Positions 14,301 through 24,204 of a stretch of 32,000 bases of DNA are shown here, one piece after another (position 1 is the first letter of the stretch; each line of letters begins with the position of its first letter). Source of the DNA: Nostoc punctiforme PCC 73102 (GTDB taxonomy: Bacteria > Cyanobacteriota > Cyanobacteriia > Cyanobacteriales > Nostocaceae); contig NC_010628.1 in assembly GCF_000020025.1 (NCBI RefSeq), positions 690,001 to 722,000 of the forward strand, read 5' to 3'. The notes beneath the pieces are model-generated. The model searched no databases and was not told the DNA's origin. It saw only the letters and a program-made list of their open reading frames with translations. The translations under genes were made by a program, and so were the position numbers.

Positions 14301-15962
14301 TAAGAAATAACTAATGACAAATGACCAGTGACTATTTAATAATGATTGCCAATTTTGCGGTGATGGGCGGCGGTAAGTGCATCTAACTTGGCAACTCTTC
14401 CAGTTTGGACTGTGCTATAAATTACCCAATGATCTCCACAGTCCATGCGGCTAGTGATTTCGCATTCCATATAAGCCAAAGCTTCAGCTAAAACGGGCGA
14501 TTCATTTTTTGCTGGATATGTCTTCACTCCGGCAAATCGGTCTACACCAGGAGCAAAACGCTTGAGGAAATGTTTCATTAATCCTTGATATTTGCCTTCT
14601 TCTAAAACGTTTAGAACGAAGCGATCGCCAACGTGCATCAAAGATTCAATTGCCCGATCTTTGGATACTGCGATCGCAACTCCTAAAGGCTCAAGACTCG
14701 CTTGTGTCACCCAAGAAGCCAACATTGCACTCTGAATTTCTCCTTTTTTGGCAGTGATAATGTATAAGCCTGTGCTAAGACGACCTAAAGCCTTCTCTAG
14801 CTCCGTATTGATAGATTTGATTTGTTTAATGGTGCGATCGCGGTTCAACCATTGACCCAAATCTGTCCCCGCTTCATCACAAAGCTGTTCCGTTGCTTGG
14901 GTAGGAATTTCCTTAACTAAAATAGGTGGAAAGGCTTCAGTTAATCCCAGTTCTTGAAACTTATTGCGTAAAGGATAAATAGGTTCATCTTCTCCACCTC
15001 CCGACTCTAATAAACCAATTGACTGCTTTTTGTGAACAGCAGCTAAAATAGTGCTTAAAGAAGCTTGAGCTATCACCGAAGATTGGGGTGGCATTGCAAT
15101 TACTAAACCAGAAGATTGTGCAACTAATTCTCTAACTTCTTGAGGTTCAGAACTATTGAGAGGAAATAATTCCACTGCTGCGCCTGTTTTCGCACATCCA
15201 TGAGCTATGGTACGGACTAACTGCTCGCTATGCCCGTAATCTTCAACATAAAATAGAGCCACTAAAGTCTCTGTTTTTGCTTGTTCTAAACTCCAGTTTT
15301 GATACCGTCCGAGCCAGTCTGGAATATAGTGTTGTAATAAAGGTCCATGTCCCGTAGCAACTGTTCCTATTTCTAACTTTTCAATCCGCTTTAAAGCTGC
15401 CAAAACAGAGCGGGCATTGGGGCCCATAAGACAATCATAATAATATTGAAAATCTTCCTCAAGTAAGGTGATATTTTCATCATAAGTGTGGTCATCACAG
15501 TAGTGCATTCCAAACACATCACAGGTGTAGAGAGTGCTAGTTTTGTGGTCATAAGTAAAGATTGTGTCAGGCCAGTGTAAGTTGGGTGCAGAGATAAATT
15601 CTAATTCGTGTCCGTTGCCTAAATTTAATCGCTCTCCACTTTTCACCTGCCTTGAATTAAAGGGCTGGTGAACCATATTTTCTAAAAATTGAATAGCTAC
15701 CTTAGCACCAACAACAGTAATGGATGGAGCTAGTTGCAAAATATTTTTTACTAGGCCACTGTGGTCTGGTTCCGTATGGCTAATAATCAAGTAATCTATT
15801 TTAGTCGGATCAATTAATCCCACAAGTATTTCAAGATATAATTGCTCAAACTTGCGGTGAGATGTATCAACTAAGGCAACTTTTTCTCCCTGAATTAAAA
15901 AAGAATTATAAGTCGTACCATTCCGTAGACCAAACTCGACATCAAAACGTTCTCTATCCCAG

Positions 15963-17414
15963 CAATACCGTTGCCAATTTACGAGGGTTCAACACCTGTG
16001 GAAAGGGGATGAATACGTCCCAAAGAAGTGAGCTTGGCAAAAATTTGGGCTAGTAAAATAGGCTCAGGCTTTTGAGGAAGTATTTTTAACATTTCATGAA
16101 CATATCGAAAACCACGGTAATAAGCTTTCAGGTCAATAATGCCAGAACCAGGATTATGTTTACGGAAATCAGCTAGAAGATGATGGGATAAATTGACCAT
16201 AAAGAATGCAATATTAGCAGCATTAGTCACAGCAGTTTGGCTCAGATTCATAAAATCTTCCAAGCCCCAGAATTGCTTGGCATCCCGAAAATTAAACTCG
16301 ATTTGGAAACGAAGCTTGTAATAGTCAATAATTCTGTCAGCCGTCAAATCTAAGTCGCTGGAAAATAAAATTACATGGCTACGTATATTGGCTTTAAGAT
16401 TAGTTTTGACTAAAATAACTACATTGAGAGACTGAGCAAATTCTTTGTGAAGAAGAGTAGCTTGATAAATATCAGTTTGAATTCCATCTTCAATATCACT
16501 TTTACACAAATATTTCTCAGGTAGATTACGGTAGTCTAGTTTTTCCCCGTATTTACGACGAGAACGTTTATTCGAGTCAGGATTTTCATAAGGGATGTAT
16601 AATGATGAATCATGGCGCAGCTTGGAAATTATGTGCAAGTTAACTTGTCGTACCATCTGCAAGGCATTGTTGTTACCAAAATGACCATCTACTACCAAGT
16701 ATGTCAAGGGGATAAAGTTAGCTACTAGCTCAAATAGTGAGTTAATCCTCTTTTTAATTAACAAGAGTTCAGATGTTAATATCACTTCGGTTTTGTTTTT
16801 ATTCTTACTGCCTTTCGGTCGTCCCCGTCCACGTTTCTCTTTAGCTTTTACTTTTTTGATTGGCAAGGTGTTATTTATTTGGGCATCACTTTTAATTACC
16901 TGTTCTATTCCAATCGGAAATGATTGCCTTCCTTCTACGCTTACTAATGACAATACGAAGAAAGATAAACCATTAATTGGTTTACTAGCCAGGCTAGAAA
17001 AAAATCTATCTACTCCGTAAGTTTGCTTCCCCGATTTACTAACTACAACTTCATCTCCTGCAAGCAAATACACATCATTTTTTCGCCACAAATGTTGACG
17101 AAAAAACAGCCAAAACAATGTTGCCCAAGGTATTACTGTAGAAAAAAATCTCCCCATTGTCCGATAGCTACCGCCATCACCTGCCCAACGGGCAATTCCC
17201 AACATCGTGACTCGACCACTTAGAGCTAACATTGCCAGGATAATTTGGTTCAATTGCCGCATCGTTGTCGCGTTTATCTGCGGTAGCAGGCATTGCAGGA
17301 GTGATAAGATATCGGGCATGGGTTGATTGTGGCTTTTGAGTTGTCGTTTGGGAAGACAATAACTCTACTACATCAGCCCTCTCTCTTCACCCTCTGATTT
17401 TGGCTAAGGTATTG
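15963..17414 (-). mobile_element. IS4-superfamily insertion sequence (1452 bp) inserted in flv4
   Basis: About 25-bp imperfect terminal inverted repeats: CAATACCGTTGCCAATTTACGAGGG versus CAATACCTTAGCCAAAATCAGAGGG, about 19 of 25 matching by eye. A perfect 6-bp direct repeat TCCCAG flanks the element at 15957-15962 and 17415-17420. It carries a single transposase ORF. Confidence 0.9.
15979..17319 (-). CDS. DDE transposase, IS4 superfamily (IS4/IS701/IS1634-like)
   Basis: 446 aa, apparently intact. Candidate DDE regions are LLAGDEVVVSK, LVVDGHFGNN and the Y-x2-R-x3-E-x6-K signature (YKLRFQIEFNFRDAK). The stop codon lies inside the terminal inverted repeat. Confidence 0.85.
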   Translation of the reverse strand: MPDILSLLQCLLPQINATTMRQLNQIILAMLALSGRVTMLGIARWAGDGGSYRTMGRFFSTVIPWATLFWLFFRQHLWRKNDVYLLAGDEVVVSKSGKQTYGVDRFFSSLASKPINGLSFFVLSLVSVEGRQSFPIGIEQVIKSDAQINNTLPIKKVKAKEKRGRGRPKGSKNKNKTEVILTSELLLIKKRINSLFELVANFIPLTYLVVDGHFGNNNALQMVRQVNLHIISKLRHDSSLYIPYENPDSNKRSRRKYGEKLDYRNLPEKYLCKSDIEDGIQTDIYQATLLHKEFAQSLNVVILVKTNLKANIRSHVILFSSDLDLTADRIIDYYKLRFQIEFNFRDAKQFWGLEDFMNLSQTAVTNAANIAFFMVNLSHHLLADFRKHNPGSGIIDLKAYYRGFRYVHEMLKILPQKPEPILLAQIFAKLTSLGRIHPLSTGVEPS

Positions 17415-18719: not shown

Positions 18720-20000
18720 AATGTTATTCAGAAATAAAGTTGAGTAGCTTAAACTGAACTTTCTCCCTGCAAATGTACTACACAACCCTTAAATTTCTGA
18801 TGTATAACTGATGCATATTGTTTACTAGCATCGGCTTAATTAATCATCTATATCAGGAAAGATTTATGGTCATAGATTTATTAGGGAAAGCAATCCAGGC
18901 AATTGCTGGTGCGGGAGTTCCTTCTATAAAAAATAAGCTTGAGCGTAGTGAGATTGTAAGCAAATTATTAAAACAACTTGATCTTTACCCTGAGCATCCA
19001 CCTGCTGATTTTTCTGGTGTATATGTCTATACTGTTGTACAGTACGGGGTTGGAAAACCACATGAAATTTTGGAATTATTTCGGCAGGAAGAAATCAAGC
19101 AGGCTTTCCGTGAAGCATTTGAACAAAATGACCCTTTAATCTTCATCAAAAAAGGTCAAGATTTTATAGATGGGTATGCCTTGGGTGATGAAATCAAAAA
19201 ACTTGGTATTGACCCGCTTCCAGAATATGCTGCTTTTGCTATGGCTTTTATTGAGGTTGCCAATAGCACACGCAAACCATCAGAAGTTTTAAGAGATCGA
19301 AAGCTTGAGACTATAAATCAAAATATATCAATTATTCAAGAGCAGTTATCTAGACTAAAAGAACCAAAGGAAATTCTACTTGAGTTAGCTATACAGTCAC
19401 GAACTTATCAAGAACTTCAGCCAGCAGATGAGTCAAAAAATGAAAGAATTGGGATATTTATATTAGCACAGCAAATGAGTGGGTGGTTTGAAACTCTAGG
19501 ATATAAGTTTGATAGACATAAGGTAGAAGAAGAGAAATTTTTCGAGTGGATCATTAATATTCCAGCACGGCGAGGATACGACCGCATCTTTGTGCGTGGT
19601 GTTGAGCGTGAAGGAGGGTTAAGTGATGTTCAATCTTTACGAAAAGCTGTGATGAGCATAAGACAAAAGAAGCTTGGCTAGTCGCTGCTCGCAGGATTAG
19701 TCCAGCAGCTCGCAATGAAGTGAAAAAGGAAGAAAATCAAGATATCTTCTGCTATACCTTTGACGAACTACTAGATGAACAAGCTGACTTTAGCAAATAC
19801 TTAGACTGGCTAGAAGCTGAGGTTAAGCGTAAGGGTATTGACAGAATGTATGTTCCTCTTGCTTGTATTAAAGAAGAATATGATCCTGTGACTCAAGAAA
19901 AACTGGGGGTTAGTCGATACAACGCAGATGATGGTTGGATTGAAGGCTACATTGATCACTGGCTAAACGATCGGGCTAAAGAGCATATCTCAATACTAGG

Positions 20001-21334
20001 GAGTTATGTAAAAATAAATTGAACAATTAACTGACTACTTTGGGTTTGATAATATAGTTCCACTCACCATGAAAAGAATTTCGTTCGATTGCGATAGTAT
20101 CAAGCTCTTGGTCTGTAACCTTGATTCCCGTTTTGTAGAGATTTGGATCTAATCTAGCTTCAACTTCTAATCCTTGTGTGGTGGTAGTATTGCGAATTAG
20201 ATTAATCACAACTTGCAAGCTAGTTAATGGTCTGCCTCGCCAGTTTTGGGTAATGTGACAAAACAAGCGATGCTCAATCTTATTCCATTTACTTGTGCCT
20301 GGAGGAAAATGACACACATGAATAGTTTTACCAGTATCAGTTGCTAATTCTTGTAACTTCAATTTCCACAATCGTGAGCGATAACTATTGCTACCACCGC
20401 AATCAGCCGTAATCATTATATGCTCACTGCTGGGATAAACTTGTTTACCCATTGAGTACCACCAATGACGAATAGACTCGACTGCAAACTCTGCGGTATC
20501 GTGGTCAATGCCAACATTTACCCATCCTTGATTTGAGGTTAAGTCATAAATTCCGTAGGGAATTGCCTTGCCCAACTTGGGGTCAACAAAATCATGCATT
20601 TTCACCTCAATTGGCTGTTCCTTTTCACACCACTCGGTTCCAGAATTTTTAAAATCTCCAATTAATTCTTTTTTTTTGTATCAACTGAAATTACGGGGGT
20701 TCGTTCTGGGATTGAAAGTGCAAGACTTGGTTGGAAATATGTAAAAACTGATCATCTCTATCTGGATGAGATGAGCCATCACGGGTTTTACGATTTGATT
20801 GTAAGCTGTAGCCAAGCGATTCAAGTAAGTTATAAACACTTTTAGGACTAGTCCTATGTCCCCCAATGTTTAATGCCGCAGCCAGTTTCACAACACTTTT
20901 AGAAGTCCATTTTAGAGGAGATTCTGGGTCTCCCAGTGTCACTGGTTCAATCAGCGATTCTAAATCTGATAGCAGCATTGCGTCTTTTTCTTCAAGTAGT
21001 TTACGTCCAGCACCTGACGAACGAATTCGATTACTATCATCATTCGAGGTTTTTTCCCCCGAAGCGTCTAACAATAACCGTATCCCAGCATGGATTGTAG
21101 TCCGGGATAGTCCAGTTGCGAGCGCAACCTGACTCACGCCTCCCCAGCCCAGGCTTCGGGCTTCAATTGCTGCCCAAATACGCCGTGTTTTCTCATTCAA
21201 ATAAGGCGATAACGAATCGTACTTGTCTTGAATGCTTTCTACTACCTGCTTATCAGACATATAAGCCTTTAATTCGGTTACATTCTGATCATCTTACCAT
21301 TCAGCAAATTGTTCAAGTTATTTTTACATGATGC
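20001..21334 (-). mobile_element. ISAzo13-like insertion sequence (1334 bp) inserted in the NACHT Walker A region
   Basis: About 33-bp imperfect terminal inverted repeats sharing ATGTAAAAATAA-N-TTGAACAATT. A 5-bp direct repeat CTAGG flanks the element at 19996-20000 and 21335-21339. The host reading frame is restored on in-silico excision. Confidence 0.85.
20027..21260 (-). pseudogene. ISAzo13-family DDE transposase, split by a 1-nt frameshift
   Basis: Track ORFs 20691-21260 (N-terminal HTH part) and 20027-20605 (C-terminal part). The C-terminal frame is actually open upstream as ...VISVDTKKKELIGDFKNSGTEW.... Family hallmarks are present: DTKKKE, PYGIYD, HFPPGTSKWNKIEHRLF, NWRGRPL. The frames switch at the C5 run (plus-strand G5 at 20695-20699). 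Confidence 0.8.
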
Positions 21335-23513
21335 CTAGGTGAGTTTGGCACTGGCAAAACTTGGTTGACTTTGCACTATGCTTGGACTGTTCTACAACGC
21401 TATCGTGATGCCAAAGACCGGAAAAGTGAACGACCTCGGATTCCATTGGTTATTCCTTTACGCGACTATGCTAAAGCAGTCAGTGTTGAGTCTTTGTTCT
21501 CAGAGTTCTTTTTTCGCAAGTATGAAATTCCTATTCTTGGTTACTCTGTATTTGAGCAACTCAACCGTATGGGGAAATTACTACTCATCTTTGATGGATT
21601 TGATGAAATGGCAGATCGGGTAGATAACCAAAAGATGATTAATAACTTCTGGGAGTTAGCTAGGGTTGTTGTACCTGGTTCTAAAGCAATTCTTACCTGC
21701 CGAACAGAACACTTTCCAGAAGCTAAAGATGGTCGAGCTTTACTAAATGCAGAATTAGAAGCTTCTACTTCTGCTCTCACTGGTGAACCTCCACAATTTG
21801 AGGTGCTAGAACTAGAGAAATTCAGCGATGACCAAATTCGTCAGGTGCTATCATTTCGAGCAGGAGTTTCCACTGTTGAACAGATAATGGAAAATCCCCA
21901 ACTCTTAGACTTAGCCCGTCGCCCAGTAATGACTGAACTAATCCTGGAAGCTTTACCTGATATTGAAGCAGGAAATCCAGTAGATATGTCACGTATTTAT
22001 CTCTATGCTGTACGCAACAAGATGGAGCGAGATATTAAGGCAGAGCGTACTTTTACCTCATTAGCTGATAAACTCTATTTTCTATGTGAGTTGTCGTGGG
22101 AGATGCTGTCAACTGATCAGATGAGTCTTAACTACCGACTTTTCCCCGATCGAATACGCCGTCTTTTTGGTCATGCTGTGCAGGAGGAAAAATATCTAGA
22201 CCACTGGCATTTTGATATGATGGGTCAGACTATGCTCATCCGTAATGCAGATGGTGACTATTCACCAGCGCATCGCTCCCTTTTAGAGTTTTTTGTCGCC
22301 TACAAATTTGCTGCTGAATTAGGAGTTATAGCTCCTGATTTTGCCGACTTAGCTAAAGCACAATCTCATTTAAATGAGAGTGTTTCATCTGACTATACTT
22401 GGTCATCTTATTTTCGGCGGGAATGTGATGAGAATGGCAATATTAAACCTATTCTATATCTGCAAGAGTTTATTCCTGAGAAAATAGAAGTATTAGCAGA
22501 AACTGTAGGAAAAGAAACACTAAATACAGACTTTATTAGTGAAAATATCAGCAAAGTACTAAATAGAAAACAGAATAATGCTATCTTTGAATTAATAGGA
22601 AATATGATTTCTCCCGAAAAGGAAAAAGTCAAGACTAGATTATTTACTATAATTACAGAAACCTGTGGTAAAACTTTACAAGAAGTAGGTATAGTTGGTG
22701 GTAATGTTGCCACTATTCTAGTCCAATATGACCCTATTAGTTTGAGAGGACAAAATCTAGCTGGTGCAAATTTAAGATATGCAAACTTTTCTGGAGCTAA
22801 TCTCACAGAATGCAATTTAGATAATGCTGATTTAAGCAATACTAGATTTAGTAGCAAATCTATAATGTTACACGCTACCCTACGAAATAGTAACTTAAAC
22901 CATTTGAGGCTAGGAGACCTTTTAATAGGTTGGATTTCAAAAGTACCTTTAAATAAAACACCCTCATTATTAACTAATTGGAATTCTGAGATACCAGCTA
23001 TCTTTTTTTATTACCCTCATGAGGGTAATCATTCAAATAGACCAAATTTACCTTTTAAAGTTAAACAGAACGAAATAGTTGTCGCTTATGGAGAAAATAG
23101 ATTATTAAAATGGAACTATATAATTAAATCAGTGTACATTTTAAATGAGGAAATTAATCAAGGAGTTCTTAAAATTCTTACTGTTGAAGGTGAAGATGTT
23201 TATCTTGAATTAAAAACTGGTCTAAATTTACCTGCCGATGAAGCTACAAGTGTCTTAAGGTCTTGGCGTTCTGCGGATTTTACAGGGGCTATGGGACTTG
23301 GTGAACGTGAAGTTTACATATTAAAAATATTAGGCGCTATTAGTCTACCTAATACTTCTTACAATCCCCACAATGATAAGAATCTAAACTTCGGATTAAA
23401 ACACAATGAGGGTGAATATGATTTTGAGGAATTGTTGTGAGATTAAAAGTCTGGTTTATACAAATTAAGCCTGCCTGTACAGACTTATACATTAATTTTT
23501 ATTGAACTTTACT

Positions 23514-23546
23514 AAAAAACTTTTTTATACTATAAAAAAGTTTTTT
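23514..23546. terminator. AT-only 14-bp perfect palindrome between convergent genes (possible bidirectional terminator)
   Basis: aaaaaactttttta (23514-23527), loop tacta, taaaaaagtttttt (23533-23546). The stem has a single G:C pair, so its stability and function are doubtful. Confidence 0.3.
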
Positions 23547-24204
23547 AATTGGTAGCTACGCCGATAATATGAGGACTAACAATCGGCAATTGTGCATCAA
23601 ATCGCTCATAATTAATACTAGCAAAACCAGCATTTTCTAAAGCAATCAAAGTTTCTCTATCTGGATGGCAACCGTCACCTATCACTTGCCAAGTCGGACG
23701 AATTGCGCTTTGTACTTGTCGCAATACAGTCCCTTGAGGTGCGGCAACGTGTTCAATAAATAAGAACCGTCCACCTGGTTTGAGTACTCTTAAAATTGCC
23801 TGTAATGTATAATCTATATTCGGCACCGAACACAAAACTAAGGTACTAACAACAGTATCTATGCTGTTATCTTCAGCATCTAACCATTCAGCATTACCAA
23901 TTCTGAGGTCGATATTTAAGCCTAGTTTTTTAGCTTGTTTTTGAAGATAGGAGTGCATGTGTGGGTTTGGCTCGATTCCTATCCAGTGGATATCTTTAGG
24001 GTAGTAGGGTAAGTTAGGGCCTGTTCCTGGACCGATTTCTAACACTTTACCTTGGAGATTTGCAAAAAGAGAACGTTTGCGATCGCTGACGATTTTATTA
24101 TACGTGCTGCTACTTTGAGCCATTATCCAGGCAAAGAAACGTTTACCAAAGTTGGCATTAATCTGATTTTGTGAATCTCCAATAATTTGGTTTACAGTCA
24201 TCAT
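23545..24204 (-). CDS. class I SAM-dependent methyltransferase
   Basis: 219 aa. Motif I VLEIGPGTGPN, then a downstream acidic and motif II/III pattern (IDTVVSTLVLCSV..., LKPGGRFLFIEH) typical of Methyltransf_11-type enzymes. Confidence 0.85.
   Translation of the reverse strand: MMTVNQIIGDSQNQINANFGKRFFAWIMAQSSSTYNKIVSDRKRSLFANLQGKVLEIGPGTGPNLPYYPKDIHWIGIEPNPHMHSYLQKQAKKLGLNIDLRIGNAEWLDAEDNSIDTVVSTLVLCSVPNIDYTLQAILRVLKPGGRFLFIEHVAAPQGTVLRQVQSAIRPTWQVIGDGCHPDRETLIALENAGFASINYERFDAQLPIVSPHIIGVATN

What the first reader, a model, noticed from the sequence alone, without database searches (positions are those of the whole stretch)
18866..23440. Doubly inactivated defence-type STAND gene: helical N-domain, Mrr-like nuclease, NACHT, pentapeptide repeats, with an IS landing in the P-loop codons
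Seen: three track ORFs are pieces of one ~1080-codon gene. Piece 1 and piece 2 overlap in alternative frames between 19627 and 19681. A 1-nt correction there yields ...EWIINIPARRGYDRIFVRGVEREGGLSDVQSLRKAV-DEHKTKEAWLVAARRISPAARNEVKKEENQDIFCYTFDELL. I read this as an Mrr/type IV restriction-endonuclease-fold core plus its usual C-terminal A-A-R helix. Piece 2 ends ...KEHISILG and piece 3 is preceded by EFGTGKTW. The 1334-bp ISAzo13-like element with a CTAGG duplication sits exactly between them, and its removal restores GEFGTGKT (Walker A) in frame. Downstream lie Walker B LLLIFDGFDEM, an HRSLLEFFVAY winged-helix-like motif, about 35 codons of A(N/D)LxX pentapeptide repeats, and a ~170-aa AT-rich C-terminal region of unknown fold. 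Established: NACHT/STAND NTPases carrying N-terminal nuclease effectors are recognised bacterial antiphage and conflict systems. Inference: this is a decayed immune sensor with an unusual pentapeptide-repeat plus unknown-domain sensor arm. The first ~200 aa (helical, no family recognised) may be an uncharacterised effector-associated or adaptor domain.
Basis: partly seen in the sequence, partly recalled or inferred. Interest (0 to 1): 0.66.

Follow-up and report, generated by a model that had tools for sequence, protein, structure and literature searches.

The report
Broken NACHT immune-type gene in Nostoc
This is a real but dead copy of an already catalogued cyanobacterial NACHT (NLR-like) gene, killed by a one-base deletion and a mobile-element insertion; the one unusual point is that two sister Nostoc species carry different mobile elements within 12 bases of the same spot.

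Summary
Adding one base after 19650 and removing the insertion restores a 1078-codon ORF with an intact Walker A (GEFGTGKT). Both lesions recur in many independent assemblies, so they are not sequencing errors.

The interpretation needs three corrections.
- The N-terminal domain is a recognised family, Pfam NNH5 (E 7e-47).
- The "Mrr-like nuclease" is NA-iREase1 (E 8e-42). It has the restriction-endonuclease fold but no canonical catalytic lysine. In clade 11 of the published NACHT catalogue (Kibby et al.) it sits as a module between varied N-terminal effectors and the NACHT.
- The element is an ISNsp4-like ISAzo13-family IS of 1335 bp with a 4-bp CTAG duplication, and its own transposase is broken.

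The "unknown" C-terminus is a rare, family-restricted beta-domain, probably a relic of the clade's beta-propeller.

Intact syntenic orthologues exist in Nostoc sp. ATCC 53789 and another Nostoc. Strains 210A and KVJ20 carry two other IS elements within 12 bp of the same site, while dN/dS stays low (0.04 in the NACHT). That points to recent, independent hits at a hot spot.

Verdict: an ordinary pseudogene of a known kind, with a modestly interesting recurrent-insertion pattern. No clade-11 member has been tested for defence.

The parts
18866..19650 (+). Piece 1 of the gene up to the deletion (codons 1-262). Contains NNH5 (aa 4-138 = 18875-19279), a helical linker, and the first part of NA-iREase1 (which starts at aa 200 = 19463).
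   Evidence: ORF list, Pfam, coordinates checked codon by codon.
19650..19651 (+). Site of the 1-nt deletion. An A is lost: GCTGTAGATGAG in the orthologues, GCTGT-GATGAG in the window. This shifts the frame, and piece 1 then stops at 19679-19681.
   Evidence: Alignment with 210A and KVJ20. The Nostoc GCA_036918275 allele also reads GTAGAT; the search pattern did not match the ATCC 53789 sequence. The same truncated 271-aa product is found in 105 assembly blocks.
19463..19776 (+). NA-iREase1 domain (aa 200-304), spanning the frameshift. It has the restriction-endonuclease fold but no canonical catalytic (D/E)xK.
   Evidence: Pfam E 8e-42. AlphaFold model pLDDT 86 with alpha-beta-beta-beta-alpha-beta topology. 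Foldseek matches EcoT38I, NucS, MspJI and AF1548. List of invariant residues.
19651..19999 (+). Piece 2 (codons 263-378 plus the first base of G379), in the -1 frame relative to piece 1. It holds the rest of the iREase and the pre-NACHT region and ends ...KEHISIL-G.
19996..19999 (.). Left copy of the target-site duplication, CTAG.
   Evidence: Comparison with the ISNsp4 copy in PCC 7120, which is flanked by CTAA.
20000..21334 (-). ISNsp4-like element of the ISAzo13 family, 1335 bp. Terminal inverted repeats include 20006-20028 and 21307-21329. The transposase is split into 20691-21260 (N-terminal part) and 20027-20605 (C-terminal part), so this copy is defective.
   Evidence: NCBIfam NF033519. 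94% identity to the PCC 7120 copy, which encodes one 410-aa transposase. Relative to that copy the window has -1 nt just after the T9 run and +2 nt about 20 nt further on. Inverted-repeat search.
21335..21338 (.). Right copy of the target-site duplication, CTAG.
21338..21361 (+). Walker A codons GEFGTGKT (aa 379-386). The IS sits inside the first glycine codon.
   Evidence: Identical to the intact orthologues.
21341..22333 (+). NACHT NTPase plus winged-helix region (aa 380-710). Walker B LLLIFDGFDEM lies at 21578-21610 and PAHRSLLEFFVAY at 22265-22303.
   Evidence: Pfam NACHT 28.9 bits against a cut-off of 26.7. Near-invariant across 30 homologues. dN/dS 0.04.
22334..22723 (+). Variable helical linker between the NACHT and the repeats (aa 711-840).
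   Evidence: Alignment; model helices.
22724..22918 (+). Pentapeptide-repeat beta-helix (about aa 841-905; Pfam match aa 851-883).
   Evidence: Pfam 39.2 bits. The model superposes on pentapeptide-repeat structures at about 1 A. PDB profile hits.
22919..23263 (+). Family-specific beta-domain (about aa 906-1020), with no Pfam model. Probably a relic of a WD40 blade.
   Evidence: Model pLDDT 89. No PDB or viral match beyond pentapeptide proteins and weak propeller blades. Only 25 representative clusters among 1.84 billion proteins, all in this architecture. hhalign to the C-terminus of a WD40 paralogue.
23264..23440 (+). C-terminal cap (ADFTGAMGLGEREVYILKILGAI, 23273-23341), tail and stop codon.
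   Evidence: The motif is shared with the extreme C-terminus of the WD40 paralogue P0034.

Best explanation
The locus is the dead copy of a single-gene, NLR-like STAND NTPase of a catalogued cyanobacterial lineage, clade 11 of Kibby et al. The architecture is NNH5, inactive-REase module, NACHT, pentapeptide repeats, then a reduced beta-domain.

How the intact protein most likely works (inferred from the family, not shown here):
1. The fast-evolving C-terminal arm (pentapeptide beta-helix plus small beta-domain) holds the protein off until it binds a trigger.
2. NTP binding at GEFGTGKT / DGFDE then drives oligomerisation.
3. Oligomerisation clusters the N-terminal NNH5 domain, which occupies the slot taken by TIR, caspase, SIR2 or PNPase effectors in sister proteins.
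4. The REase-fold domain probably acts as a non-catalytic scaffold or nucleic-acid-binding module.

In this strain the gene is non-functional for two independent reasons (shown):
- One A is lost after 19650, which truncates the protein at codon 271.
- A defective ISNsp4-like element sits in the first Walker A glycine codon (G379) with a CTAG duplication.

Both lesions are recent relative to the divergence of the Nostoc species. The insertion site appears to be a local hot spot for IS630/ISAzo13-type elements that target TA or CTAG (inferred).
For: Lesions and reconstruction.

Reality of the lesions in independent data.

Domains.

Single-gene model:
- More than 30 intact full-length homologues.
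- About 60 of 67 species-representative loci are uninterrupted.
- Intact syntenic orthologues in Nostoc sp. ATCC 53789 (1071 aa) and Nostoc GCA_036918275 (1080 aa), with the same upstream genes (flavodiiron, PsiE, PALP).

Clade and architecture: Kibby et al. Table S1 lists NNH5+NA-iREase1+NACHT+Pentapeptide+BetaPropeller in clade 11, with variable effectors N-terminal to the iREase.

Recent inactivation:
- The 210A and KVJ20 alleles are clean 1078-codon ORFs once their IS is removed.
- dN/dS between the window and 210A is 0.28 overall and 0.04 in the NACHT.

Hot spot:
- Three different elements sit within 12 bp: window, ISAzo13 at CTAG; 210A, a degenerate IS630-type element with a TA duplication inside the same CTAG; KVJ20, an IS630-type element at a TA 12 bp upstream.
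- No IS-sized interruption of the gene turned up in the other representative loci; a few carry frameshifts or shorter insertions.

Sensor diversification: lineage-specific changes in the C-terminal third are 19 nonsynonymous to 10 synonymous and 32 to 13 in the intact alleles, against 0 to 7 in the NACHT.
Against: - No member of clade 11 has been tested against phage. None of the clade-11 entries read carries a bNACHT label in Table S1.
- PADLOC has no model that hits the protein.
- Neighbourhoods of intact homologues are not conserved and are not defence islands.
- The function of NNH5 is unknown.
- The REase-like domain keeps invariant E227, R240, R244 and E249 and near-invariant D239, so residual or non-canonical catalysis cannot be excluded.
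- The hot-spot inference rests on five alleles and is post hoc. No structural feature of the DNA explains it.
Confidence: 0.8

Rival explanations
1. The recurrent insertions reflect selection as well as mutation bias. Loss of this costly or self-toxic NLR-like sensor is favoured in symbiosis-competent or long-cultured Nostoc. Insertion just upstream of the P-loop would be a tolerated, possibly reversible, way to switch it off, because it severs the effector half from the NTPase-sensor half without producing a constitutively active truncation.
For: - Three of five orthologous alleles are IS-disrupted, each by a different element, within 12 bp.
- Apart from the IS, the 210A and KVJ20 alleles show no decay.
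- No IS-sized interruption was seen in the roughly 60 other homologue loci.
- Rough odds under uniform use of the 15 CTAG and 269 TA sites are about 1e-3 to 1e-5 (counts; the calculation is my inference and is post hoc).
Against: - Selection for loss alone does not explain one site, since any insertion in the first ~480 codons would inactivate the gene.
- The window also carries a frameshift, so excision could not restore function there.
- The retained fragments differ. The 210A downstream ORF keeps the P-loop, while the window's longest downstream ORF and the annotated KVJ20 gene (691 aa) start after it.
- Element orientation is not consistent across the three strains.
- No expression or fitness data are available.
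Confidence: 0.2
2. The intact protein is not an antiphage sensor. It would instead serve an endogenous role in filamentous cyanobacteria, such as programmed cell death, kin or self recognition, or developmental signalling, as proposed for STAND expansions in multicellular bacteria.
For: - Kibby et al. note that cyanobacteria carry many paralogous NACHT genes and that genomes with three or more NACHT proteins tend to belong to multicellular bacteria.
- There is no defence-island context.
- There is no PADLOC hit.
- The gene is dispensable in three cultured strains.
Against: - Tested bacterial NACHT proteins from other clades do protect against phage.
- A fast-evolving C-terminal arm next to a frozen NTPase core is the pattern expected of a sensor in an arms race.
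- Sister architectures in clade 11 carry classical conflict effectors such as TIR, SIR2, caspase and PNPase.
Confidence: 0.25
3. The split is not inactivation. The pieces would be expressed through programmed frameshifting or as separate polypeptides that reassemble into a working system.
For: - The 210A downstream ORF starts inside the IS and keeps an intact Walker A.
- Stand-alone NNH5+iREase proteins are common in databases.
Against: - The deletion site GCTGTGATG is not a slippery sequence, and four of five orthologues read through it in one frame.
- In the window a TGA lies immediately upstream of the P-loop codons, and the first start codon (TTG at 21365) lies after them.
- Most short database proteins are contig-end fragments or scattered frameshifts, not a conserved split.
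Confidence: 0.03
4. The frameshift or the IS is an assembly or base-calling artefact.
For: None was found. A +1 G at the very same Gly codon in one metagenome contig (L088) does look like a long-read homopolymer error.
Against: - The exact truncated product recurs in 105 assembly blocks.
- The 8 contigs displayed, of 21 that carry the downstream piece, start with the same IS-end/CTAG/gene junction.
- The deletion is not in a homopolymer.
Confidence: 0.01

Closest known systems
Clade 11 bacterial NACHT proteins of Kibby et al. (bioRxiv 10.1101/2022.07.19.500537, Table S1), e.g. Calothrix parasitica WP_096653106.1: NNH5+NA-iREase1+NACHT+Pentapeptide+WD40/beta-propeller
   Same: - Same order of NNH5, NA-iREase1, NACHT and pentapeptide domains.
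- About 60-65% identity to ~1500-aa WD40 paralogues over the first ~880 residues.
- Shared extreme C-terminal cap motif.
   Different: The 600-aa beta-propeller is replaced by a ~115-aa beta-domain. That domain has no Pfam model and is found in only 25 representative clusters. The window copy is also a pseudogene.
bNACHT25 and other experimentally antiphage bacterial NACHT proteins with an N-terminal Mrr-like REase effector (Kibby et al.)
   Same: - NACHT module with Walker A and the D[GAS]hDE Walker B.
- An REase-fold domain N-terminal to the NACHT.
- A single-gene system.
   Different: - Here the REase-fold domain belongs to the family curated as inactive. It lacks (D/E)xK and falls below the Mrr_cat threshold.
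- It is preceded by a separate N-terminal domain.
- The clade is different and the C-terminal arm is different.
- No phage data exist for this clade.
ISNsp4 (ISAzo13 family) of Nostoc sp. PCC 7120 plasmid pCC7120gamma
   Same: - 94% nucleotide identity over the full length.
- Same termini (GGAGTT...GATGC).
- 4-bp CTAR duplication.
   Different: The window copy has two small indels that split the 410-aa transposase into 189-aa and 192-aa ORFs.
Intact orthologues WP_114084852.1 (Nostoc sp. ATCC 53789) and WP_335181006.1 (Nostoc sp., GCA_036918275)
   Same: - Same chromosomal position downstream of the flavodiiron/PsiE/PALP genes.
- 89-90% amino-acid identity.
- Identical uninterrupted target sequence GAGCATATCTCAATACTAGGTGAG.
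   Different: They have no IS and a continuous reading frame; the base lost in the window was seen directly in the GCA_036918275 allele. They are annotated only as 'pentapeptide repeat-containing protein'.

Membership tests
NACHT (STAND NTPase; Pfam PF05729) | Profile match above the curated threshold | tested here: met
   28.9 bits against a cut-off of 26.7, aa 375-549 of the reconstructed protein.
NACHT (STAND NTPase; Pfam PF05729) | Walker A GxxxxGK[ST] | tested here: met
   GEFGTGKT, aa 379-386, appears only after the IS is removed. It is nearly invariant (at least 90% of rows) in 30 homologues. In the window as it stands the motif is cut off from any start codon.
NACHT (STAND NTPase; Pfam PF05729) | Walker B with the NACHT signature D[GAS]hDE (as defined in Kibby et al.) | tested here: met
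   LLLIFDGFDEM, i.e. D-G-F-D-E, aa 459-469.
NACHT (STAND NTPase; Pfam PF05729) | Winged-helix extension with the conserved histidine (equivalent to NLRC4 H443) | tested here: inconclusive
   PAHRSLLEFFVAY is near-invariant, but it was not mapped onto a structure. Sequence searches of the PDB found no NLR relative.
Clade 11 NACHT architecture (Kibby et al. Table S1) | iREase module immediately N-terminal to the NACHT, and pentapeptide repeats after it | tested here: met
Clade 11 NACHT architecture (Kibby et al. Table S1) | C-terminal beta-propeller (WD40) | tested here: not met
   No WD40 Pfam hit in aa 890-1078. There is only a ~115-aa beta-meander, with a weak hhalign link to the last blade and cap of a WD40 paralogue (probability 49%, E 1.7e-4).
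Clade 11 NACHT architecture (Kibby et al. Table S1) | Placement of the NACHT module inside clade 11 in a phylogeny | not tested
   No tree was built. Assignment rests on architecture and on 60-65% identity to NNH5-iREase-NACHT-Pp-WD40 proteins.
NA-iREase1 (PF22722) | Profile match, and the restriction-endonuclease alpha-beta-beta-beta-alpha-beta fold | tested here: met
   E 8e-42. Model pLDDT 86. Foldseek matches EcoT38I, NucS 2vld, MspJI and AF1548 1y88, with TM 0.48-0.60 normalised to the query.
Active Mrr-type PD-(D/E)xK nuclease (Mrr_cat PF04471) | Profile match above threshold | tested here: not met
   17.5 bits against a cut-off of 21, E 0.0045.
Active Mrr-type PD-(D/E)xK nuclease (Mrr_cat PF04471) | Catalytic D ... 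(D/E/Q)xK with lysine in beta-3 | tested here: not met
   No invariant lysine anywhere in the domain across 16 diverse homologues. Beta-3 reads YDRIFVRGV. Invariant E227, R240, R244 and E249 and near-invariant D239 remain, so a non-canonical site is not excluded.
NNH5 (PF22736) | Profile match | tested here: met
   E 7e-47, aa 4-138, covering the full length of the model.
Pentapeptide repeat (PF00805) | Profile match and right-handed quadrilateral beta-helix | tested here: met
   39.2 bits against a cut-off of 20.2. The model superposes on 2f3l, 2j8i and 2xt2 at 0.8-1.4 A over 54-59 alignment columns.
ISAzo13 family insertion sequence (ISNsp4-like) | Family transposase, terminal inverted repeats, short target duplication | tested here: met
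   NF033519 at 336 and 181 bits for the two halves. Inverted repeats at 20006-20028 and 21307-21329. CTAG duplication.
ISAzo13 family insertion sequence (ISNsp4-like) | Intact transposase, meaning an autonomous element | tested here: not met
   The transposase is split into two ORFs by a -1 and a +2 indel relative to the 410-aa PCC 7120 gene.
Known antiphage defence system | Match to a curated defence-system model | tested here: not met
   PADLOC returns only mad8 at E 0.0011 over 59 residues around the P-loop.
Known antiphage defence system | Protection against phage on expression | not testable with these tools
   None of the clade-11 entries read carries a bNACHT designation in Kibby et al. 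Table S1.

The most novel reading that the evidence does not exclude
The codons just upstream of the Walker A of this Nostoc NLR-like gene may be a genuine, selected 'IS trap'. On this reading, different TA/CTAG-targeting elements repeatedly switch off a costly immune sensor at the effector/NTPase boundary in symbiosis-competent Nostoc lineages. This would be convergent, potentially reversible silencing of an innate-immune receptor by mobile elements.
Probability: 0.15. Interest if true: 0.6.

Novelty: new member of a known kind. Interest (0 to 1): 0.3.

Why it matters
Taken alone, this is one more IS-riddled pseudogene in a Nostoc genome, and it belongs to a NACHT clade that is already catalogued. 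Three points have some value.

1. It gives a clean, natural 'before and after' series: two intact and three independently disrupted alleles of one NLR-like gene. This series can be used to ask whether such sensors are costly, and whether TA/CTAG-targeting IS elements have true hot spots.

2. Comparative architecture assigns the effector slot to NNH5 rather than to the REase-like module. That tells anyone who wants to test clade 11, which is so far untested, which domain to mutate.

3. It defines a rare reduced sensor domain, probably a propeller relic, that current domain libraries do not cover.

Tried and rejected
- **Metagenome scans.** Two DNA-pattern scans of JGI metagenome contigs for the left and right flanks of the insertion site found nothing. 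No further close alleles came from that source.
- **PDB sequence searches.** Sequence and profile searches with the iREase domain and the NACHT region gave no informative relatives. The full-family profile hit only pentapeptide-repeat proteins.
- **Fold search of the C-terminal model.** Foldseek against the PDB and against viral models gave only pentapeptide proteins and low-TM propeller blades.
- **PADLOC.** No defence-system model matched.
- **Literature.** A search for ISAzo13 target-site preference was unproductive, as was a search for 'inactive restriction endonuclease' together with NACHT.
- **DNA features at the hot spot.** I looked for inverted repeats, direct repeats and unusual AT content. 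I found only a 12-nt imperfect direct repeat (CACTGGCTAAAC / CACTGGCAAAAC) flanking the site, which is not beyond chance, and average AT content.
- **Family-wide splitting at the P-loop.** I tested whether truncated homologues cluster there. Truncation points of short database proteins are scattered across codons 250-560 and are mostly contig ends or frameshifts. One contig has a +1 G exactly at the Gly codon, but this is probably a long-read error. Rejected as a general phenomenon.
- **Shared ancestral insertion.** Rejected. The three elements are unrelated in sequence and each has its own clean duplication.
- **Polarising window-specific substitutions to date the inactivation.** The window is the outgroup of the five alleles, so the counts are not cleanly polarised. 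Only five departures from positions conserved in at least 90% of the family were seen.
- **A numbering error of my own, now corrected.** The first Walker A glycine is residue 379, not 372. The segment boundaries used for dN/dS are the codon ranges printed there.

Full report
**1. What is in the sequence**

Between 18866 and 23440 the + strand carries three ORF pieces. Pieces 1 and 2 overlap in different frames near 19627-19681.

Aligned with orthologues, the window lacks a single A after 19650: GCTGTAGATGAG has become GCTGT-GATGAG. The site is not a homopolymer.

Piece 2 runs into an insertion at 19999/20000, and piece 3 resumes at 21340. Adding one base and removing the insertion gives a 3237-nt ORF of 1078 codons that reads ...KEHISILGEFGTGKTW.... 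I checked the coordinates codon by codon. L378 is 19996-19998. The first Walker A glycine, G379, is split by the element. E380 starts at 21341.

**2. The lesions are real**

The exact 271-aa frameshifted product is on record in 105 blocks of public assemblies, from many different sequencing runs. Of 21 independent contigs that carry the downstream piece, the 8 displayed all begin with the same 27-33 bases of IS end, followed by CTAGGTGAG. This is the pattern expected when short-read assemblies break at a multicopy repeat. Base-calling or assembly error is excluded as far as public data allow.

**3. The insertion**

Its two ORFs hit the ISAzo13-family transposase model, covering model positions 2-169 and 201-387. 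The element is 94% identical over its whole length to ISNsp4 on plasmid pCC7120gamma.

That copy is flanked by CTAA/CTAA, and both copies start GGAGTT and end GATGC. The window element is therefore 20000-21334 (1335 bp) with a 4-bp CTAG duplication.

Relative to the 410-aa PCC 7120 transposase gene, the window copy has a -1 indel just after a T9 run and a +2 indel about 20 nt further on. The IS is therefore itself defective.

**4. The protein**

Pfam gives these matches:
- NNH5, aa 4-138, E 7e-47.
- NA-iREase1, aa 200-304, E 8e-42.
- NACHT, aa 375-549, 28.9 bits against a cut-off of 26.7.
- Pentapeptide, aa 851-883.
- Mrr_cat, below threshold.

The Walker B, LLLIFDGFDEM, carries the NACHT signature D[GAS]hDE quoted by Kibby et al..

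A model of aa 195-310 (pLDDT 86) has the alpha-beta-beta-beta-alpha-beta topology. It matches EcoT38I, NucS, MspJI and the Mrr-like AF1548. However, among 16 diverse homologues there is no invariant lysine, and beta-3 reads YDRIFVRGV. The canonical (D/E)xK is absent, in line with the family's name.

A model of aa 807-1078 (pLDDT 89, pTM 0.86) shows, in order:
- helices;
- about 11-12 pentapeptide rungs;
- a five-to-six-stranded beta-meander;
- a final rung and a helix.

**5. What is known about this kind**

Table S1 of Kibby et al. (bioRxiv 10.1101/2022.07.19.500537) lists NNH5+NA-iREase1+NACHT+Pentapeptide+BetaPropeller proteins in clade 11.

In many of the clade-11 entries an iREase sits directly before the NACHT. 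The domain N-terminal to it varies: NNH5, NNH6+PNPase, EAD4, HTH, TIR, caspase, SIR2, trypsin, calcineurin-like. By position, NNH5 occupies the effector or adaptor slot and the iREase is a recurrent module.

None of the clade-11 entries read (part 6 of the table) carries a bNACHT label. The defence role is therefore inferred from other clades. PADLOC has no matching model.

**6. The 'unknown' C-terminus**

- It has no Pfam hit.
- A profile of it finds only 25 representative clusters among 1.84 billion proteins.
- All the long hits have the NNH5-iREase-NACHT-pentapeptide architecture.
- Its last ~40 residues align with the extreme C-terminus of a 1489-aa WD40 paralogue, covering a TGxxL motif plus the cap ...TG.MGL.E.E...LK.LGA. 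(BLASTP E 0.005; hhalign E 1.7e-4, probability 49%).
- Foldseek gives weak propeller-blade matches.

I read it as a reduced relic of the clade's beta-propeller. This is plausible but not proven.

**7. Relatives and the single-gene model**

- More than 30 intact proteins of 1035-1118 aa share the full architecture at 58-75% identity.
- About 60 of 67 species-representative loci are uninterrupted.
- Cluster look-up then revealed intact close orthologues: WP_114084852.1 (Nostoc sp. ATCC 53789, 1071 aa) and WP_335181006.1 (Nostoc sp., 1080 aa).
- Both sit at the same place, downstream of two flavodiiron genes, PsiE and a PALP enzyme.
- Both carry the uninterrupted GAGCATATCTCAATACTAGGTGAGTTTGGCAC.
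- Neighbourhoods of more distant intact homologues are unrelated to one another. This looks like a stand-alone gene.

**8. The unexpected part**

The two other close orthologues are also interrupted, by different elements.

- In Nostoc sp. 'Peltigera membranacea cyanobiont' 210A, a 1187-bp degenerate IS630-type element lies inside the same CTAG. It has inverted repeats TAGGA(C/A)TCCTATTTGATTTTTGAAAAA, HTH_23 and HTH_33 fragments, and a TA duplication.
- In Nostoc sp. KVJ20 the gene is broken across two contigs by an IS630-type element inserted at a TA 12 bp upstream.

Neither element resembles the window's IS.

Once the IS is removed, both alleles are clean 1078-codon ORFs. dN/dS between the window and 210A is 0.28 overall and 0.04 in the NACHT. 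The gene was therefore under purifying selection until recently, and the three hits are independent.

The gene has 15 CTAG and 269 TA sites, and three TA sites lie within 12 bp of the target. Under uniform use, the coincidence has odds of roughly 1e-3 to 1e-5. This is my own post hoc estimate.

I found no DNA structure that would explain the preference. Only 5 of 46 other homologues have CTAG at this codon pair, and those are uninterrupted.

The simplest reading is a local hot spot for TA/CTAG-targeting elements in IS-rich Nostoc genomes. Selection for loss of the gene is a possible added factor.

**9. Verdict**

The object is an ordinary, recently decayed member of a catalogued NACHT clade, with a reduced sensor arm. 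The recurrent insertion within 12 bp in three species is the only feature that goes beyond routine annotation.

Noticed in passing
window 15962-17414: A second insertion of about 1.45 kb carries a 446-aa DDE_5/DDE_Tnp_1 transposase gene (15979-17319, minus strand). It is absent from the syntenic position in Nostoc 210A and KVJ20.
   Followed up: partly
L004 9135-10321; L057 9124-9264 with L005 1-246: The orthologues in Nostoc 210A and KVJ20 are interrupted by two other IS630-type elements, each with a TA duplication. One sits inside the same CTAG as the window's IS and the other 12 bp upstream. Together with the window that makes three different elements within 12 bp.
   Followed up: yes
window 23441-24204 versus L001/L092 downstream regions: Synteny breaks immediately after the stop codon. 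The window and ATCC 53789 continue with a class I methyltransferase. 210A and Nostoc GCA_036918275 continue with an aminotransferase and HSDR_N-like genes. The gene therefore sits at the edge of a variable region.
   Followed up: partly
window 20600-20700: The ISNsp4-like copy is itself decayed. Compared with the PCC 7120 copy it has a 1-nt deletion just after the T9 run and a 2-nt insertion about 20 nt away, which split the transposase into two ORFs.
   Followed up: yes
L088 5640-5700: A metagenome homologue (DUF4062-containing, WD40 type) has an extra G exactly in the Leu-Gly codons before EFGTGKT (CTTGGGTGAATTC). This splits the gene at the same residue. It is probably a long-read homopolymer error.
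   Followed up: partly
L090 5090-5217: A 61%-identical homologue in Symploca sp. SIO2D2 diverges into unrelated sequence after ...DRWL (residue 367, about 33 bp upstream of the Nostoc site), and the contig ends 86 bp later. This may be another repeat insertion near the P-loop codons.
   Followed up: no
window 22334-23437 and the orthologous regions of L091 and L092: In the intact orthologues, lineage-specific changes in the C-terminal third are mostly nonsynonymous (19 to 10 and 32 to 13), whereas the NACHT core has none (0 to 7). dS also varies between segments, which hints at recombination or diversifying selection on the sensor arm.
   Followed up: partly
window 18866-19280: The NNH5 segment of the window allele is unusually divergent from the other four Nostoc alleles (dN 0.093 against 0.004 in the NACHT). 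At several positions, however, the window keeps the family consensus while the other four share a derived residue, so the window allele is the outgroup of the five.
   Followed up: partly
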